Source: a virus (lineage: Duplodnaviria > Heunggongvirae > Uroviricota > Caudoviricetes). Taken from it: a stretch of DNA of 6,094 bases. The position numbers and the translations under genes are program-made. This document shows, piece by piece, positions 1-4,735 of this stretch; within the stretch, counting starts at the first letter, position 1; every line of letters begins with the position of its first letter. The notes beneath the pieces were generated by a model, which did no database searches, was not told the DNA's origin, and saw nothing but the letters and a program-made list of their open reading frames with translations. The DNA lies in the IMG/VR virus record IMGVR_UViG_3300023487_000043, positions 1 through 6,094 of that record. One strand, 5' to 3'.

Positions 1-161
1 GAAGCGATCTCCTTTCTTCCCTTTGCCGTTGTGATATCAGGCACAAAGGACATAACTTCACGTTCAACCTTTTTAAGGATTTCTTCAATCTGGTCGGCAG
101 ACTGAAATACAGTCATTGCATTTGCTTTTTCAATAACAACTAAATCTGTTACTTCACTCAT
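1..161 (-). CDS. Partial ORF (first 53 codons, continues beyond window start); hypothetical early-operon protein
   Basis: Minus-strand ATG at 161-159 preceded by GGAGG (166-170, 5-nt spacer). Hand translation MSEVTDLVVIEKANAMTVFQSADQIEEILKKVEREVMSFVPDITTAKGRKEIA runs open to the window edge. Not in the ORF track because no stop lies in the window. No family recognised. Confidence 0.45.
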   Translation of the reverse strand, partial: MSEVTDLVVIEKANAMTVFQSADQIEEILKKVEREVMSFVPDITTAKGRKEIA

Positions 162-173
162 ATATCCTCCATC

Positions 174-200
174 AAAAAAATCGCCCTCACATCGGAGGGC
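174..200 (-). terminator. Intrinsic terminator between the 62-aa ORF and the partial ORF
   Basis: Stem GCCCTC (183-188) / GAGGGC (195-200) with 6-nt loop; on the minus strand it is followed by GA then a 7-T run (plus A174-180). Confidence 0.55.
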
Positions 201-295
201 AAAGAAGATTTCCAATAATCAGAACAAGTCGGCTCCTGTTTAGTTACGAGCGACATTGCTCCGTGTATTCACTCGTTGGAATGAATACACAGTGC

Positions 296-484
296 TTATT
301 CGTCATGCATTTCAGGTAATTCTTCGTATTCGACTCCCCATACGAGTTTACACCAAGTGACTCGCTCATATCTTTTACAAAAATCAGACCACATAACTTG
401 TGTTCCATCATGGTTTGTTATTACTTCTGTAATATCACCAACACTAACAAAACTGGTATTAGAAGCAGTTATTTTTACTTTCAT
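296..484 (-). CDS. Hypothetical small protein (62 aa)
   Basis: ORF track. Its ATG (484-482) overlaps the upstream stop by 1 nt (TAATG coupling). No recognisable motif. Confidence 0.4.
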   Translation of the reverse strand: MKVKITASNTSFVSVGDITEVITNHDGTQVMWSDFCKRYERVTWCKLVWGVEYEELPEMHDE

Positions 485-771
485 TACTTATCCCCAAGAG
501 CTTTTCTGATTGCTGCGATACCTTTATTAACAGCTCCATACCATTCTGGATATGTTGTCGTTGTTCTATTTTTGGTTTGCTTAAGTAATAACTGAAGTGC
601 TTCGAGAAGGTCAGGAGCTGCTGCTATCAGTAGCGCATCCTCCCTTTCATTTCTTGTTGCTGCTTCAATGTATGTGTCACCAATCGTCACACCATGGAAC
701 GTAGTCATCATCTCGTTGACGTTTCTAACCGTGTACTTCCATTTACCAGGCGTACCCTTAAACTCTTTCAT
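484..771 (-). CDS. Hypothetical protein (95 aa from ATG at 771; ORF track extends to GTG at 777)
   Basis: ORF track 484..777. The in-frame ATG at 771-769 has GAGG 5 nt upstream, so it is the preferred start. No family recognised. Confidence 0.5.
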   Translation of the reverse strand: MKEFKGTPGKWKYTVRNVNEMMTTFHGVTIGDTYIEAATRNEREDALLIAAAPDLLEALQLLLKQTKNRTTTTYPEWYGAVNKGIAAIRKALGDK

Positions 772-793
772 ATCCACCTCTGTTGTTTATGCC

Positions 794-819
794 AAAAATA
801 AAGGCCGACTATGCGGCCT
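794..819 (-). terminator. Putative intrinsic terminator overlapping the stop of the 156-aa ORF
   Basis: Stem AGGCCG (802-807) / CGGCCT (814-819) with 6-nt loop; minus strand continues TTATTTTT (plus 794-801). Could be an N-overridden tL-type terminator. Confidence 0.45.
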
Positions 820-1288
820 AGTAGAATACCCAATTTTCTGTTTCTTGGTTGTGTCCAAAGTTATATTCAATATCTGGTGTTGATGTATCAATATTCTTCA
901 TCCCATCAACAAGAGTTGATACAACAGCCAAATCTTGTTTGATTCTCATTAAATGGTACTTCTTCCGGCGCAATAAACTTTCAATGGCAAGTTTCTTCGT
1001 TGGGAATGCAAAAGATCTTTCTGCATTTTTTGCTACTTTCTTAATTGCATATCTATTTCTCCTTTGTTTCCATTCCTGTAACCACTGATTTGGTGCTGGT
1101 TTAAAATTAACAATCCAATGCGCAGGAACCAACCATGCATAATGCTCTGTCTGATGAAAAGCTATATATTGAAGTGCGAATATTTTGATTCCATCTTCTT
1201 CAACTGTCGCCTGGAATCTCCAGAAAACAGGCATTCCCTCATGTTCAGTTTCTGATTCAGGAAAAGGTACGCTCCATGATTTTGTCAT
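818..1288 (-). CDS. Hypothetical early protein (156 aa) immediately downstream of the N-like gene
   Basis: ORF track. Start ATG 1288-1286 with GAGGTGA upstream; this SD overlaps the N-like stop (1297-1299). No hydrophobic segments or known motif seen. Confidence 0.55.
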   Translation of the reverse strand: MTKSWSVPFPESETEHEGMPVFWRFQATVEEDGIKIFALQYIAFHQTEHYAWLVPAHWIVNFKPAPNQWLQEWKQRRNRYAIKKVAKNAERSFAFPTKKLAIESLLRRKKYHLMRIKQDLAVVSTLVDGMKNIDTSTPDIEYNFGHNQETENWVFY

Positions 1289-1296
1289 ATCTCACC

Positions 1297-1596
1297 TCAA
1301 ATAAGTGGTTTGCTGCCTAATTTCATTTTCTGGCGACCAACACAAGTCACACCCATTTCACTGCGTGGCTTGCTGTAGTAAATACGGTTCTGTTTACGCT
1401 CGACTTCTTCTGCCTTCTTGCAGCGAAGGCTTCCGAGTGATGCTGCTTTATCTGCTCTGACGCAACCAGAGAGCTTTAGCGCAATTTTTCGCGCCAGTCG
1501 CTGCTCTTGCATTGCCTGCTCACGTTGAGCCTGTCTGCGTGCTCTGCGGCGATTTCTGGCGTTATCGTCAGCCAGATATGTAATGACTACTGTCAT
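1297..1596 (-). CDS. N-like transcription antiterminator (P22 gene 24 / lambda N family)
   Basis: 99 aa. N-terminal MTVVITY followed by an arginine-rich motif NARNRRRARRQAQREQ typical of N-family boxB-binding peptides. First gene downstream of pL/nutL. GGAGG 5 nt upstream of the ATG. Confidence 0.7.
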   Translation of the reverse strand: MTVVITYLADDNARNRRRARRQAQREQAMQEQRLARKIALKLSGCVRADKAASLGSLRCKKAEEVERKQNRIYYSKPRSEMGVTCVGRQKMKLGSKPLI

Positions 1597-1703
1597 GTTG
1601 ACCTCCGATGATTGACTTTGGCGGTGACGCGCCGGGTGCTTATCTTCCGGTTGCCGTCGTGCAGCTGCACTTCACGTCACCCCAAAGCCAACTACTCTTT
1701 GGT

Positions 1704-1744
1704 TCCCGCATTTCGGCGGGACAATCCCATCAATGTTAAAGAGC
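1704..1744 (-). promoter_or_regulatory. nutL (boxA + boxB)
   Basis: Minus strand reads GCTCTTTAACA (boxA, plus 1734-1744), a 12-nt spacer, then hairpin UCCCGC-CGAAAU-GCGGGA (plus 1704-1721). The same boxA and an identical boxB recur at nutR. Confidence 0.6.
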
Positions 1745-1790
1745 CTGCCAATCTGTTCCGTTTGGCTTCCAGCGTCCTGCTGATGGCTTA

Positions 1791-1844
1791 AATTTAAGAT
1801 CTCTTTAATTAATGGTCAAGAGTATTTTTGAAGAAAACTTAAAT
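1791..1844 (-). promoter_or_regulatory. OL operators and putative pL
   Basis: 18-bp site ATTTAAGATCTCTTTAAT (1792-1809) fits the P22 c2 half-site pattern ATTTAAG/CTTTAAT. A second site TTTGAAGAAAACTTAAAT (1827-1844). Minus-strand -35 TTGACC (plus 1814-1819), 17-bp spacer, weak -10 TAAATT (plus 1791-1796). Confidence 0.55.
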
Positions 1845-1910: not shown

Positions 1911-2561
1911 TTATGGAAGGTTTGCTAGTTTTGCATCGACAACTACGCCGATGATTTTGCAGTTTCCGTTGATCTCGATCATCGGATATTGTGGGTTAAG
2001 TGGTTTTAGAAACTTCCTGCCTGCATCAATAACTAACTTCTTGAAAGTTGCCTCGTTTTCTCCTTCGAGCTTTGCAACTACCAGTTTCCCGTTACGCGGC
2101 TCTACTTCAGGATCGACGAGTATTATCATTCCTTCAGGGATACTGAGACCGGCCGGAGCCGTCATTGAGTCTCCCTTCACATCCAACCAAAACGAATCTT
2201 CTGAACAGTCTACGGTTGTATCGTACCAGTTATCTATTGCACGCTTATGATATGGTTCTACAGCTTCCATCCAGCATCCTGCGCTCACCCAGCTAATCAG
2301 AGGGTATGACCCTCTTGGATCATGCCTACTGTGATAGGCAATGTTTGAAAGACTTTCCTCTCCTTTCATCAGATAGTCAGGGGAACACTTCAACGCATTA
2401 GCCAGGGCGAGAAGATTCTCTCCATTTGGCTCTGTCTCAGAGCGTTCCCACTGAGATATGGCAACATTAGACACGCCGACCATCTTTCCAAGTGCGGCCT
2501 GCCTGATCTTGAGTTCTTTTCTCCGAGCGCGAATGCGCTCTCCCATCAATTGAGTTTTCAT
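1911..2561 (-). CDS. c2: Prophage repressor, P22 c2-type (N-terminal HTH, C-terminal S24/LexA-like autopeptidase)
   Basis: 216 aa. Near-identical by recollection to P22 C2 (MKTQLMGERIRARRKELKIRQAALGKMVGVSNVAISQWERSE...). C-terminal GDSM serine motif. Divergent from cro across an operator region. Confidence 0.93.
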   Translation of the reverse strand: MKTQLMGERIRARRKELKIRQAALGKMVGVSNVAISQWERSETEPNGENLLALANALKCSPDYLMKGEESLSNIAYHSRHDPRGSYPLISWVSAGCWMEAVEPYHKRAIDNWYDTTVDCSEDSFWLDVKGDSMTAPAGLSIPEGMIILVDPEVEPRNGKLVVAKLEGENEATFKKLVIDAGRKFLKPLNPQYPMIEINGNCKIIGVVVDAKLANLP

Positions 2562-2834: not shown

Positions 2835-2877
2835 GCTCTTTAACAGTCATGGTCCTCATTCCCGCCGAAATGCGGGA
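2835..2877 (+). promoter_or_regulatory. nutR (boxA + boxB)
   Basis: GCTCTTTAACA (2835-2845), 14-nt spacer, hairpin TCCCGC-CGAAAT-GCGGGA (2860-2877), identical to the nutL boxB. Confidence 0.65.
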
Positions 2878-2884
2878 ATACAAC

Positions 2885-2902
2885 GCGCATAAGTTGATGC
2901 GC
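2885..2902 (+). other. Hairpin between nutR and cII (tR1-like position)
   Basis: GCGCAT (2885-2890) / ATGCGC (2897-2902) with 6-nt loop, followed by a T-rich stretch. Lambda tR1 is Rho-dependent, so function here is uncertain. Confidence 0.3.
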
Positions 2903-2917
2903 ATAACTTCTTATTTG

Positions 2918-2958
2918 TTAAGGAAATACTTACATATGGTTCGTGCAAACAAACGCAA
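2918..2958 (-). promoter_or_regulatory. pRE with CII-binding TTGC-N6-TTGC repeats
   Basis: Minus strand TTGCGTTTGTTTGC (plus 2945-2958) overlaps the first cII codons; -10-like AAGTAT (plus 2926-2931). Matches the lambda pRE arrangement by recollection. Points leftward through cro toward c2. Confidence 0.65.
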
Positions 2959-3229
2959 CGAGGCTCTAAGAATCGAGAGTGCGTTGCTTAACAAAATCGC
3001 AATGCTTGGAACTGAGAAGACAGCGGAAGCTGTGGGAGTTGATAAGTCGCAGATCAGCAGGTGGAAGAGGGATTGGATTCCAAAGTTCTCAATGCTGCTT
3101 GCTGTTCTTGAATGGGGCGTCGTCGACGACGACATGGCTCGATTGGCACGACAAGTTGCTTCGATTCTCACCAATAAAAAACGCCCGGCGGCAACCGAGC
3201 GTTCTGAACAAATCCAGATGGAATTCTGA
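2936..3229 (+). CDS. cII: CII transcriptional activator (lambda-type)
   Basis: 97 aa MVRANKRNEALRIESALLNKIAMLGTEKTAEAVGVDKSQISRWKRDWIPKFSMLLAVLEWGVVDDDMARLARQVASILTNKKRPAATERSEQIQMEF, essentially identical to lambda CII by recollection. The ORF-track start at 2849 is an upstream frame extension. Confidence 0.92.
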   Translation: MVRANKRNEALRIESALLNKIAMLGTEKTAEAVGVDKSQISRWKRDWIPKFSMLLAVLEWGVVDDDMARLARQVASILTNKKRPAATERSEQIQMEF

Positions 3230-3261: not shown

Positions 3262-3906
3262 ATGACATACGAAAATGACAAATTCCAGGTTCTGAAGAGC
3301 ATGAAGGTGCCAGATGATTTTAAATCAAATGGCTTTGTTTATGTGCTTTCGAATGAGTGCATGCCAGGAATTTATAAGATTGGGATGACTAAGCATTCAC
3401 CAGAAGTTAGGGCTAAAGAAATTTCAGCCTCTACTGGCGTTCCTAAGCCATTTAAGGTGATAGCAGCCTTTCATTCAAATAATCCAGCATCAGATGAAAA
3501 ACTCATTCATAAAGCCTTTGCAAAAGAGAGGCTTAGTGATAATCGAGAGTTTTTCAAGCTTGAAGATAATGAGCTTTCTGAATCTCTAAATGAAATAAGG
3601 GCGCTGGTTGGCCCTGAAAGAAATGGCGAGACGGCAGAATACGCAATTTACGACGCATTCATTTCTTTTCGCCATGAAAATGAGCTTGATCTTAATGAGG
3701 AGCTTATAGAGCAAGGTCTGGGTAGTGTAGTTGGTCATCTTCCTGCGGTGAAAAATTTCCTTATTCGCGCCGGAATTGATTACGCGAAGCAACTGATAAG
3801 CAAATATAACTCATCGATAGTTATTAATACAGATGGCAGTGTGGTGATGGTTAAGTCTCTTGAAGCCCAATGCTTTGATGCGGAGGTTGGAAATGAGCCT
3901 GGCTGA
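3262..3906 (+). CDS. T5orf172 / GIY-YIG-like domain protein (214 aa) with uncharacterised C-terminal half
   Basis: AGGAG (3253-3257) then ATG 3262. Motifs GFVYVLSN...PGIYKIGMT...EVRAKE...PFKV...EKLIHKAF...NREFF match the T5orf172 pattern. AT-richer than flanking genes by eye. Sits between cII and the O-like gene. Confidence 0.7.
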   Translation: MTYENDKFQVLKSMKVPDDFKSNGFVYVLSNECMPGIYKIGMTKHSPEVRAKEISASTGVPKPFKVIAAFHSNNPASDEKLIHKAFAKERLSDNREFFKLEDNELSESLNEIRALVGPERNGETAEYAIYDAFISFRHENELDLNEELIEQGLGSVVGHLPAVKNFLIRAGIDYAKQLISKYNSSIVINTDGSVVMVKSLEAQCFDAEVGNEPG

Positions 3907-4735
3907 AGTATTTTACCTGCCGAAGAGTGAACCTGTTGAACAGGAGCGAAGAGTGGCTGATATCGATGATGGTTACACCAGATTCGCTAACGAGCTGCTG
4001 GAAGCTATCGCAAGTGCCGATTTAACCGCTCGCCAGTTGAAAGTTATGCTGGCCTACGTCCGGAAAACATATGGCTTCAATAAGAAAACAGATCGAATAG
4101 CCGATGAGCAAATTGCTCAGTTAACAGGACTGTCAAGGCAGAATGTTAACAAGGCTAAAAAAGAACTGATTTCAATGAATTGCCTGTTTATGGATGGAAA
4201 TCAAATCGGTGTAAACAGGGAGGTATCTGCGTGGCAATTCAGCAAGTGTCTCCAAGTTAGCAACTTTGTCTCGAAGTTAGAGACAAAAAGTGTCTCCAAA
4301 TTAGAGACACTCAATGTCTCGAAGTTAGAGACACACAAAAGACATTCTTTAAAGACAAAAGAAAATATTAATAAACCCCCTATATCCCCCAAAAAAGTTT
4401 CTCAGAAGTTCGACCCGCTAGAAACAGAGTTGCCTGATTGGTTATCAGCAGAAACATGGTTGTCGTGGGTTACCTATCGCAAGGAGATAGGTAAGTCGAT
4501 CAAGTCTAAGCAAAGTGTCACTCAGGCTATCAACGTTCTATGCAGAAGTCTGGAGAAGGGATATACACCTGAAGAAATTATAAACCAGAGCATCGCCAGT
4601 GGTTGGCAGGGTATTTTTGAGCCCAAGACTCCAAAGGGGAAATCTCAACCGAGGCCGCAGCATCGAGCTATGCAGGAAAACTTTGCCACCAAAGATTACG
4701 GACAAACTGAAATGCCTTCATGGGCGCAGGAGTGA
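3893..4735 (+). CDS. Replication initiator, lambda O-like (280 aa from ATG 3893)
   Basis: QERRVADIDDGYTRFANELLEA...RQLKVMLAYVRKTYGFNKKTDRI aligns with the lambda O N-terminal domain (QERNVADLDDGYARLSNMLLEA...). GGAGG 6 nt before ATG 3893. Iterons lie mid-gene. The upstream TTG (3860) and ATG (3878) lack an SD. Confidence 0.85.
   Translation: MSLAEVFYLPKSEPVEQERRVADIDDGYTRFANELLEAIASADLTARQLKVMLAYVRKTYGFNKKTDRIADEQIAQLTGLSRQNVNKAKKELISMNCLFMDGNQIGVNREVSAWQFSKCLQVSNFVSKLETKSVSKLETLNVSKLETHKRHSLKTKENINKPPISPKKVSQKFDPLETELPDWLSAETWLSWVTYRKEIGKSIKSKQSVTQAINVLCRSLEKGYTPEEIINQSIASGWQGIFEPKTPKGKSQPRPQHRAMQENFATKDYGQTEMPSWAQE
4247..4400. repeat. Replication origin: four iterons plus AT-rich region inside the O-like gene
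   Basis: 17-bp iterons at 4248-4264 (GTCTCCAAGTTAGCAAC), 4268-4284 and 4316-4332 (GTCTCGAAGTTAGAGAC), 4292-4308 (GTCTCCAAATTAGAGAC), each with GTCTC/GAGAC dyad ends. Followed by an A/T-rich tract 4333-4400. Confidence 0.8.

What the first reader, a model, noticed from the sequence alone, without database searches (positions are those of the whole stretch)
296..1288. Three unrecognised early-left ORFs directly downstream of the N-like gene
The 156-aa, 95-aa and 62-aa ORFs are tightly packed (SD overlapping the N stop; TAATG coupling at 484) in the N-antiterminated pL operon. In lambdoid phages this position carries anti-restriction, exclusion and host-takeover genes such as ral, sieB and kil. 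None of the three matches a family I recognise, and none looks membrane-spanning, so they are candidates for anti-defence or host-modulating functions.
Basis: inference. Interest (0 to 1): 0.5.

Follow-up and report, generated by a model that had tools for sequence, protein, structure and literature searches.

The report
Three uncharacterised early-left lambdoid phage genes
The three ORFs are real, conserved phage genes of unknown function that sit where lambdoid phages keep anti-restriction and other accessory genes; two of them form a conserved coupled pair, but no function could be assigned, so this is a reasonable yet fairly ordinary lead.

Summary
Three minus-strand ORFs (818-1288, 484-771, 296-484) follow an N-like gene in a CUS-3-type lambdoid immunity region. 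All three are conserved under purifying selection and are soluble, AT-rich proteins.

They are not uncatalogued:
- ORF-A is HK97 gp45 / 933W gp19 / phi24B vb_24B_11c (phrog_1636). Its DNA is in 598 of 5426 complete E. coli genomes.
- ORF-B belongs to phrog_1273 / PF27050. PGAP names some alleles "XkdD/Y8K6 family".
- ORF-C is phrog_10407. The domain also occurs in T4-like, 9NA-like and P2-like phages and on large (134-342 kb) viral contigs.

None resembles a characterised protein by Pfam, NCBIfam, PADLOC, PDB sequence search or fold search; the AlphaFold models were weak.

New anatomy:
- ORF-A lies before the first terminator-like hairpin, so it is probably made together with N.
- ORF-B and ORF-C are a translationally coupled pair. 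The adjacency is kept in 52 of 80 viral loci, across strong divergence and even with the gene order reversed.
- The cargo slot ends at a near-identical copy of lambda's tL2a/PreS sRNA element.
- The same slot holds ral in CUS-3 and lambda.

The best reading is early lytic accessory proteins acting in counter-defence or host modulation. This rests on context only. Interest is modest.

The parts
1297..1596 (-). N-like antiterminator gene (99 aa). Context: this is the gene just upstream of the finding.
   Evidence: phrog_271 'anti-termination protein N-like', E 5e-37. Weak Pfam N_peptide hit. CUS-3 has a 300-nt N annotated in the matching position of its cI-N immunity region.
1700..1819 (-). pL-like promoter (1819-1791) and nutL-like boxA (GCTCTTTAACA) plus a boxB-like hairpin (CCCGC...GCGGG)
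   Evidence: Promoter consensus scan. boxA and boxB were read by eye from the sequence; their coordinates are approximate.
818..1288 (-). ORF-A, 156 aa, basic (pI 9.1), Trp-rich and soluble. HK97 gp45 / 933W gp19 / phi24B vb_24B_11c family (phrog_1636). Its Shine-Dalgarno overlaps the N stop codon.
   Evidence: Its DNA is in 598 of 5426 complete E. coli genomes. A wider superfamily of about 70 clusters at 20-25% identity was found.
802..819 (-). Terminator-like hairpin AGGCCGCATAGTCGGCCT followed by TTTATTTTTGG. It starts inside the ORF-A stop codon and is the first terminator-like site after pL.
   Evidence: Consensus scan and sequence. Its tail matches the lambda sequence just after ral. Function as a terminator is inferred.
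484..771 (-). ORF-B, 95 aa from ATG 771 (an alternative GTG at 777 lies inside the Shine-Dalgarno), basic (pI 9.3). phrog_1273 / PF27050; PGAP names some alleles 'XkdD/Y8K6 family'. It has a near-invariant first 60 residues that include the LIAAAPDLLEAL helix, a hypervariable tip of a predicted helical hairpin (about residues 61-83), and a conserved tail A.AAI.KALG.
296..484 (-). ORF-C, 62 aa, acidic (pI 4.8), Trp-rich. phrog_10407. Its start overlaps the ORF-B stop (TAATG).
   Evidence: The domain is the C-terminal half of RB49p076.
172..295 (-). Conserved non-coding element: a homologue of lambda's ral-ea10 spacer, which carries terminator tL2a and the Hfq-dependent sRNA LPR1/PreS. The terminator hairpin is at 202-181. 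This element is the downstream boundary of the cargo slot.
   Evidence: Near-identical to lambda over the aligned spacer, with 2 mismatches in the hairpin loop. At least 95% identical in 325 phage records. Terminator scan. RNA fold z-score -2.9. sRNA description: bioRxiv 10.1101/2024.10.31.621285.

Best explanation
Positions 296-1288 are the variable cargo slot of a lambdoid early-left (pL) operon. The slot is bounded upstream by N and downstream by the conserved tL2a/PreS sRNA element. It holds two independently mobile modules.

Module 1 is ORF-A (HK97 gp45 family).
- It is a basic, soluble 18.6-kDa protein.
- Its ribosome-binding site overlaps the N stop codon.
- It lies upstream of the first terminator-like hairpin.
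- It is therefore probably made together with N as an immediate-early product, as soon as the repressor is absent.

Module 2 is the translationally coupled pair ORF-B and ORF-C.
- ORF-B is a basic 10.7-kDa XkdD/Y8K6-type protein. Its first 60 residues are nearly invariant and the tip of its predicted helical hairpin is hypervariable.
- ORF-C is an acidic 7.3-kDa Trp-rich protein.
- The pair lies between two terminator-like hairpins, so it probably needs N antitermination.
- I infer that the two proteins work together, possibly as a complex.

No enzymatic motif, membrane segment or separate promoter was found. The most likely mode of action is therefore stoichiometric binding of host or competitor macromolecules early in lytic growth. 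That means counter-defence or host-takeover accessory functions of the ral / gam / kil kind.

What is shown: the genes are real and under purifying selection, their placement, the translational couplings, the conserved B-C adjacency, and the distribution.

What is inferred: terminator function, the timing of expression, complex formation, and the counter-defence or host-modulating role. The targets are unknown.
For: Real genes:
- Full-length PHROG matches.
- dS saturated while dN is 0.2-0.5 between distant homologues, and dN/dS 0.065 for ORF-A versus HK97.

Placement and couplings:
- Sequence read on the minus strand.
- Terminator-like hairpins at 819-802 and 202-181, and no promoter-like site on the minus strand inside 296-1288.

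The slot is a cargo site:
- CUS-3, with the same cI/N immunity region, has ral plus a 140-aa ORF in the slot.
- Lambda has sieB-orf28-ral, followed by the same PreS element.
- HK97 has only gp45 before that element.
- E. coli E4 and GS04 have ral followed by B-C.
- Bas106 has ORF-A, a different ORF-B allele, and then an unrelated 70-aa gene.

The B-C pair:
- In 80 viral loci that carry an ORF-C relative, 52 have an AAAPDLLEAL-motif gene ending 0-28 nt before ORF-C. In 45 of these the overlap is 1 nt.
- This holds across at least 6 ORF-B N-terminal types and ORF-C identity of 48-100%.
- The adjacency is kept with the order reversed (C then B) in L075 and L076.

Mobility across phage types:
- ORF-C relatives occur in T4-like Krischvirus, 9NA-like SP069, P2-like Avpd1, and viral contigs of 134-342 kb.

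Accessory-gene signature:
- GC content is 34-42%, against 49% for N.
- Presence is patchy: 598, about 125 and 94 of 5426 E. coli genomes.
- ORF-B alleles recombine at the conserved LIAAAPDLLEAL motif.

No homology to housekeeping or characterised proteins was found.
Against: - No functional evidence of any kind exists, and no similarity to any known anti-defence protein was found.
- The structure models were weak: ORF-A mean pLDDT 54, ORF-B 69 with a low-confidence N-terminal half. Fold searches were uninformative.
- Hot-spot position is only guilt by association. The same operon also carries recombination, SSB-like and regulatory genes.
- ORF-A is basic. In Vibrio phage PvVp04 and in Brenneria it sits near RecE/YqaJ-type genes, which would fit a role in DNA transactions.
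- ORF-A is not always next to N. It is the last gene before xis-int in Pectobacterium and Brenneria.
- The terminators and the promoter are consensus matches only.
- ORF-B/ORF-C allele pairing shows no obvious co-variation. Part of the adjacency could therefore reflect linkage within one cassette rather than a physical interaction.
Confidence: 0.45

Rival explanations
1. One or more of the proteins, ORF-A above all, are accessory DNA-transaction proteins. They would help recombination, replication or DNA-end handling, like Ea10/SSB, Arf or Abc1 in the same operon, rather than act against the host.
For: - ORF-A is basic (pI 9.1) with a Lys/Arg-rich central helix and conserved aromatic residues.
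- A distant homologue in Vibrio phage PvVp04 lies beside RecE-annotated genes and upstream of the replication initiator.
- The Brenneria homologue lies downstream of a YqaJ-domain gene.
- The early-left operon is rich in such functions (PMC12315714).
Against: - No match to any nucleic-acid-binding or nuclease family.
- Position relative to the Rec module varies, and ORF-A is usually far from it, next to N.
- Presence is patchy: about 11% of E. coli genomes.
Confidence: 0.2
2. The proteins are regulators of phage development. For example, ORF-A could modulate N, transcription elongation or the lysis-lysogeny decision. That would explain its co-translation with N.
For: - The ORF-A Shine-Dalgarno overlaps the N stop codon, and ORF-A lies before the first terminator-like site.
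- It lies directly after N in HK97, 933W, phi24B and many Stx phages, despite different N types.
Against: - In Pectobacterium and Brenneria the homologue lies at the far end of the operon, next to xis-int, with no N_peptide-annotated gene in the locus table.
- In Cronobacter it lies about 750 nt from N.
- CUS-3, with an N gene of the same length and position as the window's, lacks ORF-A.
- No HTH or other regulatory domain was detected.
Confidence: 0.15
3. The genes are superinfection-exclusion or prophage-encoded defence genes that protect the lysogen, like sieB, rexAB or P22 gp17. Alternatively, B-C is a toxin-antitoxin-like addiction pair.
For: - The same region of lambdoid phages carries sieB and gp17-type exclusion genes.
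- B-C is a small two-gene module with opposite charges, pI 9.3 and 4.8.
Against: - No promoter-like site on the coding strand inside 296-1288, so no expression is expected from a repressed prophage.
- No membrane segments.
- No PADLOC hit below E 0.01 and no toxin or antitoxin Pfam domain.
- ORF-C relatives occur in virulent T4-like and 9NA-like phages, where a function for the lysogen makes no sense.
Confidence: 0.1
4. The ORFs are not functional genes (chance ORFs or decaying remnants).
For: No experimental evidence of translation is available here.
Against: - Full-length conservation across genera.
- dS saturated with a much lower dN.
- Proper Shine-Dalgarno sequences and coupled start sites.
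Confidence: 0.02

Closest known systems
HK97 gp45 / 933W ST933Wp19 (NP_049479) / phi24B vb_24B_11c (phrog_1636)
   Same: ORF-A is 98.7-99.4% identical to these proteins over the full length and lies in the same place after N.
   Different: Nothing differs in sequence. The family itself has no known function. No paper in the searched library mentions the identifiers NP_049479, ST933Wp19, AAF31125 or vb_24B_11c, and the listed HK97 + gp45 hits concerned other phages' gp45.
XkdD/Y8K6 family phage-associated protein (PGAP name), Pfam PF27050, phrog_1273
   Same: - ORF-B matches phrog_1273 (E 3e-26).
- The identical 95-aa protein carries PF27050.
- It shares the GTPGxW N-terminus, the LIAAAPDLLEAL helix and the AAI.KALG tail with alleles that PGAP names XkdD/Y8K6.
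   Different: - The window allele has a different N-terminal beta region (WKYTVRNVNEMM type) from the PGAP-named alleles (WEIMMDGDEIKII type).
- The local NCBIfam library gave no hit for any of them.
- The family has no known function.
RB49p076 (phrog_16117) of Krischvirus T4-like phages
   Same: ORF-C is 53-59% identical to its C-terminal 55 residues, with the same conserved Trp/Tyr/Glu positions.
   Different: - In RB49 the domain is fused behind an unrelated 60-residue N-terminal part and lies in a block of small early ORFs.
- No ORF-B-type gene lies next to it.
- Its function is also unknown.
Lambda Ral (with orf28), the anti-restriction gene of the same slot
   Same: - It has the same operon position, between N and the tL2a/PreS element.
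- It is also a small soluble protein expressed early from pL.
- ral lies directly upstream of the B-C pair in some prophages.
   Different: There is no sequence similarity: no Pfam family passed threshold for any of the three ORFs. Alleviation of type I restriction was not tested.
Small early protein inhibitors such as lambda Gam, T7 Ocr and P22 Abc2 (a works-like analogy only)
   Same: They are also small cytoplasmic proteins without enzymatic motifs, made first in infection.
   Different: No sequence or fold similarity was detected. ORF-C is acidic but much smaller than the known DNA mimics; that comparison rests on my own knowledge.

Membership tests
HK97 gp45 family (phrog_1636), for ORF-A | Full-length sequence match to the family profile and to its named members | tested here: met
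   phrog_1636 E 7.3e-112 over 1-156 of 156. 98.7% identical to HK97 gp45 and 99.4% to the 933W protein.
XkdD/Y8K6 family / PF27050 / phrog_1273, for ORF-B | Profile match to the family | tested here: met
   phrog_1273 E 3.2e-26 over 2-96. The identical 95-aa protein P0034 and all listed homologues carry the precomputed domain PF27050.1.
XkdD/Y8K6 family / PF27050 / phrog_1273, for ORF-B | Match to NCBI's own model behind the PGAP name | tested here: inconclusive
   The local NCBIfam release gave no hit for the window protein, and none for the two alleles that RefSeq names XkdD/Y8K6. The name probably comes from a rule that is not in this library.
phrog_10407, for ORF-C | Full-length profile match | tested here: met
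   E 1.5e-45 over 1-62 of 62. It also matches the C-terminal part of phrog_16117.
Ral-type or other known anti-restriction proteins (Ral, Ocr, ArdA, KlcA) | Sequence homology to the family | tested here: not met
   Pfam-A at E up to 1 returned only sub-threshold, unrelated hits for all three ORFs. That Pfam contains models for these families is from my own knowledge.
Ral-type or other known anti-restriction proteins (Ral, Ocr, ArdA, KlcA) | Relief of restriction when expressed | not testable with these tools
   This needs plating of unmodified phage on restricting hosts, with and without the gene.
Catalogued anti-defence families (AntiDefenseFinder / dbAPIS type) | Profile match to a catalogued anti-defence protein | not tested
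   No such library was available here. Indirect evidence: phages phi296, phi315 and phi367 carry ORF-A, and their authors report only methyltransferase, Ral and Gam from DefenseFinder's anti-defence search (PMC12502783).
SieB / superinfection-exclusion membrane proteins | Membrane-spanning segments, and expression from the prophage | tested here: not met
   The highest 19-residue Kyte-Doolittle mean is 0.56, 1.49 and 0.77 for A, B and C. There is no promoter-like site on the coding strand within 296-1288 and no Pfam hit.
Known anti-phage defence systems (PADLOC) | Profile match to a defence protein | tested here: not met
   The only hit was ORF-A versus Cas1_II at E 0.018 (12 bits), taken as noise. 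There were no hits for ORF-B or ORF-C.
Type II toxin-antitoxin pair, for ORF-B/ORF-C | Two small coupled genes | tested here: met
   TAATG overlap at 484, and a conserved pairing.
Type II toxin-antitoxin pair, for ORF-B/ORF-C | Own promoter, and a recognisable toxin or antitoxin domain | tested here: not met
   No promoter-like site. No toxin or antitoxin domain in Pfam, NCBIfam or PADLOC.

The most novel reading that the evidence does not exclude
ORF-B and ORF-C together form a previously undescribed two-protein counter-defence or host-takeover module. ORF-C would be a small effector domain shared by temperate lambdoid, P2-like, 9NA-like and T4-like phages and large viral contigs. ORF-B would be an adaptor whose hypervariable helical-hairpin tip sets target specificity. 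ORF-A (HK97 gp45) would be an immediate-early inhibitor made with N in most Stx phages.
Probability: 0.3. Interest if true: 0.6.

Novelty: new member of a known kind. Interest (0 to 1): 0.32.

Why it matters
ORF-A is present in about 11% of complete E. coli genomes and in many Stx-converting phage records, including 933W, phi24B, BP-4795 and H-19B. It is probably expressed at the very start of induction. A role in overcoming host defences or in reprogramming the host would therefore bear on Stx-phage spread. HK97, 933W and phi24B are available as sequenced phages in which it could be deleted.

The conserved B-C pair and the wide spread of the ORF-C domain across unrelated phage types give a concrete, cheap candidate for anti-defence screens. 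If the proteins turn out to be ordinary DNA-handling or regulatory helpers, the result only fills a gap in annotation.

Tried and rejected
1. Profile libraries. Pfam, NCBIfam and PADLOC scans of all three proteins gave nothing above noise. PHROGs gave only 'unknown function' families.

2. PDB sequence searches, with single sequences and with profiles A1-A4, gave nothing significant.

3. A weak ORF-B match to E. coli RNA polymerase beta' residues 1222-1286 (E 0.03) disappeared when the family profile was used. I rejected it as chance.

4. AlphaFold2 models.
- ORF-A: mean pLDDT 54.
- ORF-B: mean pLDDT 69, with only the helical hairpin confident.
- Foldseek against PDB and BFVD gave no match at E <= 0.001, only generic helical hairpins and unnamed phage proteins.
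- The AFDB library was unavailable.

5. A profile search of 1.84 billion representative proteins widened the ORF-A family to about 70 distant clusters. None of them has a Pfam domain or a PDB relative.

6. ORF-B was compared with the Ea22-like protein of a related prophage, because I recalled the AAAPDLLEAL motif there. There was no similarity.

7. Literature searches. The accession numbers, locus tags and PHROG/Pfam ids returned no papers. 'HK97 + gp45', 'XkdD' and the anti-defence/lambdoid term searches returned papers, but nothing about these proteins. The supplements of a phage accessory-gene screen do not contain these sequences.

8. The idea that ORF-A is functionally tied to N was weakened by homologues that lie next to xis-int.

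9. Rfam found no known RNA family in the window.
Full report
**Where the window comes from.** The window is the immunity and early region of a lambdoid E. coli phage or prophage.
- It carries a LexA-like cI repressor (1911-2561, minus strand), a P22-type Cro, CII, an O-type initiator and a DnaC-type loader.
- On the minus strand it carries an N-like antiterminator (1297-1596; phrog_271, E 5e-37).
- CUS-3 has a cI (651 nt) and an N (300 nt) of the same lengths in the same arrangement.
- The best overall DNA match for the left 1.7 kb is a prophage of E. coli E7476. It has the same three genes in the same order.

**Check of the observation.**
- Read on the minus strand, the N stop codon is embedded in TGAGGTGAGATATG. 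The ORF-A ribosome-binding site therefore overlaps the N stop.
- The ORF-B stop and the ORF-C start share a base (TAATG at 484).
- The mechanical ORF list starts ORF-B at a GTG (777, 97 aa). That GTG is part of the Shine-Dalgarno GAGGTGG.
- One amendment is needed. ORF-A and ORF-B are separated by 46 nt that carry a GC-rich hairpin followed by TTTATTTTTGG (819-802). This is a typical intrinsic-terminator signature.
- A second such hairpin lies at 202-181, after ORF-C.
- A pL-like promoter (1819-1791) and a boxA (GCTCTTTAACA) plus a boxB-like hairpin precede N.

**Are they genes?** Yes.
- Each matches a PHROG family end to end.
- ORF-A homologues from Pectobacterium, Brenneria and Cronobacter are 58-63% identical to it. 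They have dN near 0.3 with saturated dS. The window versus HK97 comparison gives dN/dS 0.065.
- ORF-B and ORF-C homologues from Providencia, T4-like, 9NA-like and P2-like phages behave the same way.
- None of the three has a hydrophobic stretch long enough to cross a membrane.
- All three are AT-rich (GC 34-42%, against 49% for N).

**ORF-A.**
- It is 98.7% identical to HK97 gp45 and 99.4% identical to the gene after N in 933W (ST933Wp19), phi24B (vb_24B_11c), BP-4795 and many other Stx phages; H-19B is 98.7% identical. In all, 83 phage records match.
- Its DNA is in 598 of 5426 complete E. coli genomes, with up to four copies per genome.
- It is annotated as hypothetical everywhere. No paper in the searched library mentions its accession numbers or locus tags, and the HK97 + gp45 search turned up nothing about it.
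- A profile search of 1.84 billion representative proteins found 87 hits. About 70 of them are 125-160-aa proteins at 20-25% identity, including one from a Vibrio phage. They share a core K..I.K...SRFAF.TKE.A...L..RK..Q..HL.R.L.
- None of these relatives has a Pfam domain or a solved relative.
- The AlphaFold model was poor (mean pLDDT 54). It shows a three-stranded sheet followed by a long helix. Fold search gave nothing usable.
- Position varies. ORF-A lies directly after N in HK97, 933W and the window. It lies about 750 nt after N in Cronobacter. It is the last gene before xis-int in Pectobacterium and Brenneria. It is therefore a mobile cassette of the early-left operon and not a fixed partner of N.

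**ORF-B.**
- The identical 95-aa protein and all 120 listed homologues carry Pfam PF27050, a model newer than the local Pfam copy.
- RefSeq names some alleles 'XkdD/Y8K6 family phage-associated protein'. No function is attached to either name, and a literature search for XkdD gave nothing relevant.
- The family has a striking layout. The first 60 residues are almost invariant and include the LIAAAPDLLEAL helix. Residues 61-83 are hypervariable, with insertions and deletions. The tail A.AAI.KALG is conserved.
- In the AlphaFold model only the two long helices (42-67 and 74-92) are confident. The variable part is the far end of this hairpin.
- Other alleles have quite different N-terminal halves but keep the central motif.
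- DNA matches in E. coli break around that motif. The gene is therefore itself a mosaic that recombines there.

**ORF-C.**
- Close relatives occur only in prophages and uncultured viral contigs: 94 E. coli genomes and about 50 IMG/VR loci.
- The domain is much more widespread at lower identity. It is 53-59% identical to the C-terminal half of RB49p076 in T4-like Krischvirus phages. It stands alone as an opposite-strand insert among the tail genes of the 9NA-like Salmonella phage SP069. It also occurs in a P2-like Aeromonas phage and in viral contigs of 134-342 kb.
- Conserved positions include three tryptophans and a VEYEEL end.

**The B-C pair.** This is the main new point.
- In 80 viral loci that encode an ORF-C relative, 52 have a gene with the AAAPDLLEAL motif ending 0-28 nt upstream. 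In 45 of them the overlap is one base.
- This holds although the ORF-B partner comes in at least six N-terminal types and ORF-C identity ranges from 48 to 100%.
- In twelve more loci, ORF-C is preceded by a 44-46-aa mini-ORF. Its tail resembles the ORF-B tail and also overlaps the ORF-C start.
- In two divergent contig types the order is reversed. ORF-C comes first, then ORF-B, then a 72-81-aa protein of the family that follows the ORF-B allele in phage Bas106. ORF-A lies before or after this group.
- Adjacency that survives divergence and reordering argues for a functional link.
- ORF-B can also pair with another downstream gene, so it is not bound to ORF-C alone.

**The slot.**
- The 125 nt after ORF-C (172-296, minus strand) are nearly identical to the spacer between ral and ea10 in lambda.
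- That spacer holds terminator tL2a and the Hfq-dependent sRNA LPR1/PreS (bioRxiv 10.1101/2024.10.31.621285).
- The element is at least 95% identical in 325 phage records.
- Upstream of it the cargo differs from phage to phage:
  - sieB-orf28-ral in lambda;
  - gp45 alone in HK97;
  - ral plus a 140-aa ORF in CUS-3;
  - ral then B-C in E. coli E4 and GS04;
  - ORF-A, then an ORF-B allele, then another gene in Bas106;
  - A then B-C in the window.
- The tail of the hairpin after ORF-A matches the lambda sequence just after ral. The B-C cassette therefore looks like an insertion between two conserved boundary sequences.

**Most likely function.**
- With no separate promoter on the coding strand, the genes should be silent in a lysogen and expressed from pL after infection or induction.
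- ORF-A precedes the first terminator-like site, so it is probably made together with N. ORF-B and ORF-C lie between two such sites, so they probably need antitermination. These steps are inferred from consensus matches.
- The supporting features are: small soluble proteins without enzymatic motifs, AT-rich composition, patchy distribution, a slot shared with ral, and in the case of ORF-C a domain shared with virulent phages. Together they fit early accessory proteins that bind host or competitor factors (confidence about 0.45).
- Rival readings are DNA-transaction helpers (0.2), developmental regulators (0.15), and exclusion, defence or toxin-antitoxin functions (0.1). The evidence for each is given in the structured fields.
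- A published DefenseFinder anti-defence scan of phages that carry ORF-A reported only methyltransferases, Ral and Gam (PMC12502783). If ORF-A is an anti-defence protein, it is not of a catalogued family.

**Verdict.**
It needs three corrections: the families are already catalogued, ORF-A is a separate immediate-early cassette, and ORF-B and ORF-C are a conserved pair.
- Uncharacterised genes are the rule in lambdoid early-left operons; PMC8022706 says as much for phage L. The finding is therefore of modest interest. Its practical value is as a list of candidates for anti-defence screens.

Noticed in passing
window 172-296 (minus strand); 32-aa ORF 158-256: The spacer after ORF-C is nearly identical to lambda's ral-ea10 spacer, which carries terminator tL2a and the Hfq-dependent sRNA LPR1/PreS. 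It is at least 95% identical in 325 phage records. The 32-aa ORF that overlaps it is annotated as a CDS in phage Bas106 (Bas106_0039) but is probably not a protein gene.
   Followed up: yes
window 802-819 (minus strand): A terminator-like hairpin starts inside the ORF-A stop codon. Its T-rich tail and the following bases (GGCCTTTATTTTTGGCATAAA.AACAG) match the lambda sequence just after ral. This suggests a conserved boundary sequence at which cassettes are exchanged.
   Followed up: partly
window 3262-3906 (plus strand): A 214-aa ORF between cII and the O-type replication gene carries a T5orf172/MUG113 domain (Pfam E about 1e-15). It matches the PADLOC models PDC-S57 (E 4.5e-29) and PD-Lambda-1. 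It may be a phage-borne defence or nuclease-like accessory gene. The same gene is present in phage Bas106.
   Followed up: partly
window 4267-4338: Three 24-bp tandem repeats lie inside the O-type replication gene and encode the repeated peptide VSKLET. They are most likely the origin iterons.
   Followed up: no
window 1-161 (minus strand): This is the start of a gene that runs off the left end. Its relatives are annotated as P22/H-19B gp17, 'superinfection exclusion protein', or 'cell envelope biogenesis protein TolA'. The conflicting names suggest that the annotation is unreliable.
   Followed up: no
L002 4296-4508; L075 2942-3160; L076 2462-2707: A 70-81-aa protein family (motif MTLRDYFAAKAM ... 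ADAMLKARE, matching the C-terminal part of phrog_2201) is an alternative downstream partner of ORF-B-type genes. Its start overlaps or abuts the ORF-B stop.
   Followed up: partly
L019 2867-3001; L048 2868-3004: In about 12 viral loci, ORF-C is preceded by a 44-46-aa mini-ORF (MNAVEFTKWMAEQDITGADEKAVYYMAMLWIHKAKEAANALGGE) instead of ORF-B. Its tail resembles the ORF-B tail, and its last codons provide the Shine-Dalgarno for ORF-C.
   Followed up: partly
window 484-771 (ORF-B residues 5-69): A single-sequence search gave a weak match (E 0.03) to E. coli RNA polymerase beta' residues 1222-1286. It vanished when the family profile was used, so it is a chance match.
   Followed up: yes
window 2849-3229: The mechanical ORF for CII starts at 2849 (126 aa). 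The Pfam CII domain fills 2936-3229 completely (97 aa), so the real start is probably the internal ATG at 2936.
   Followed up: partly
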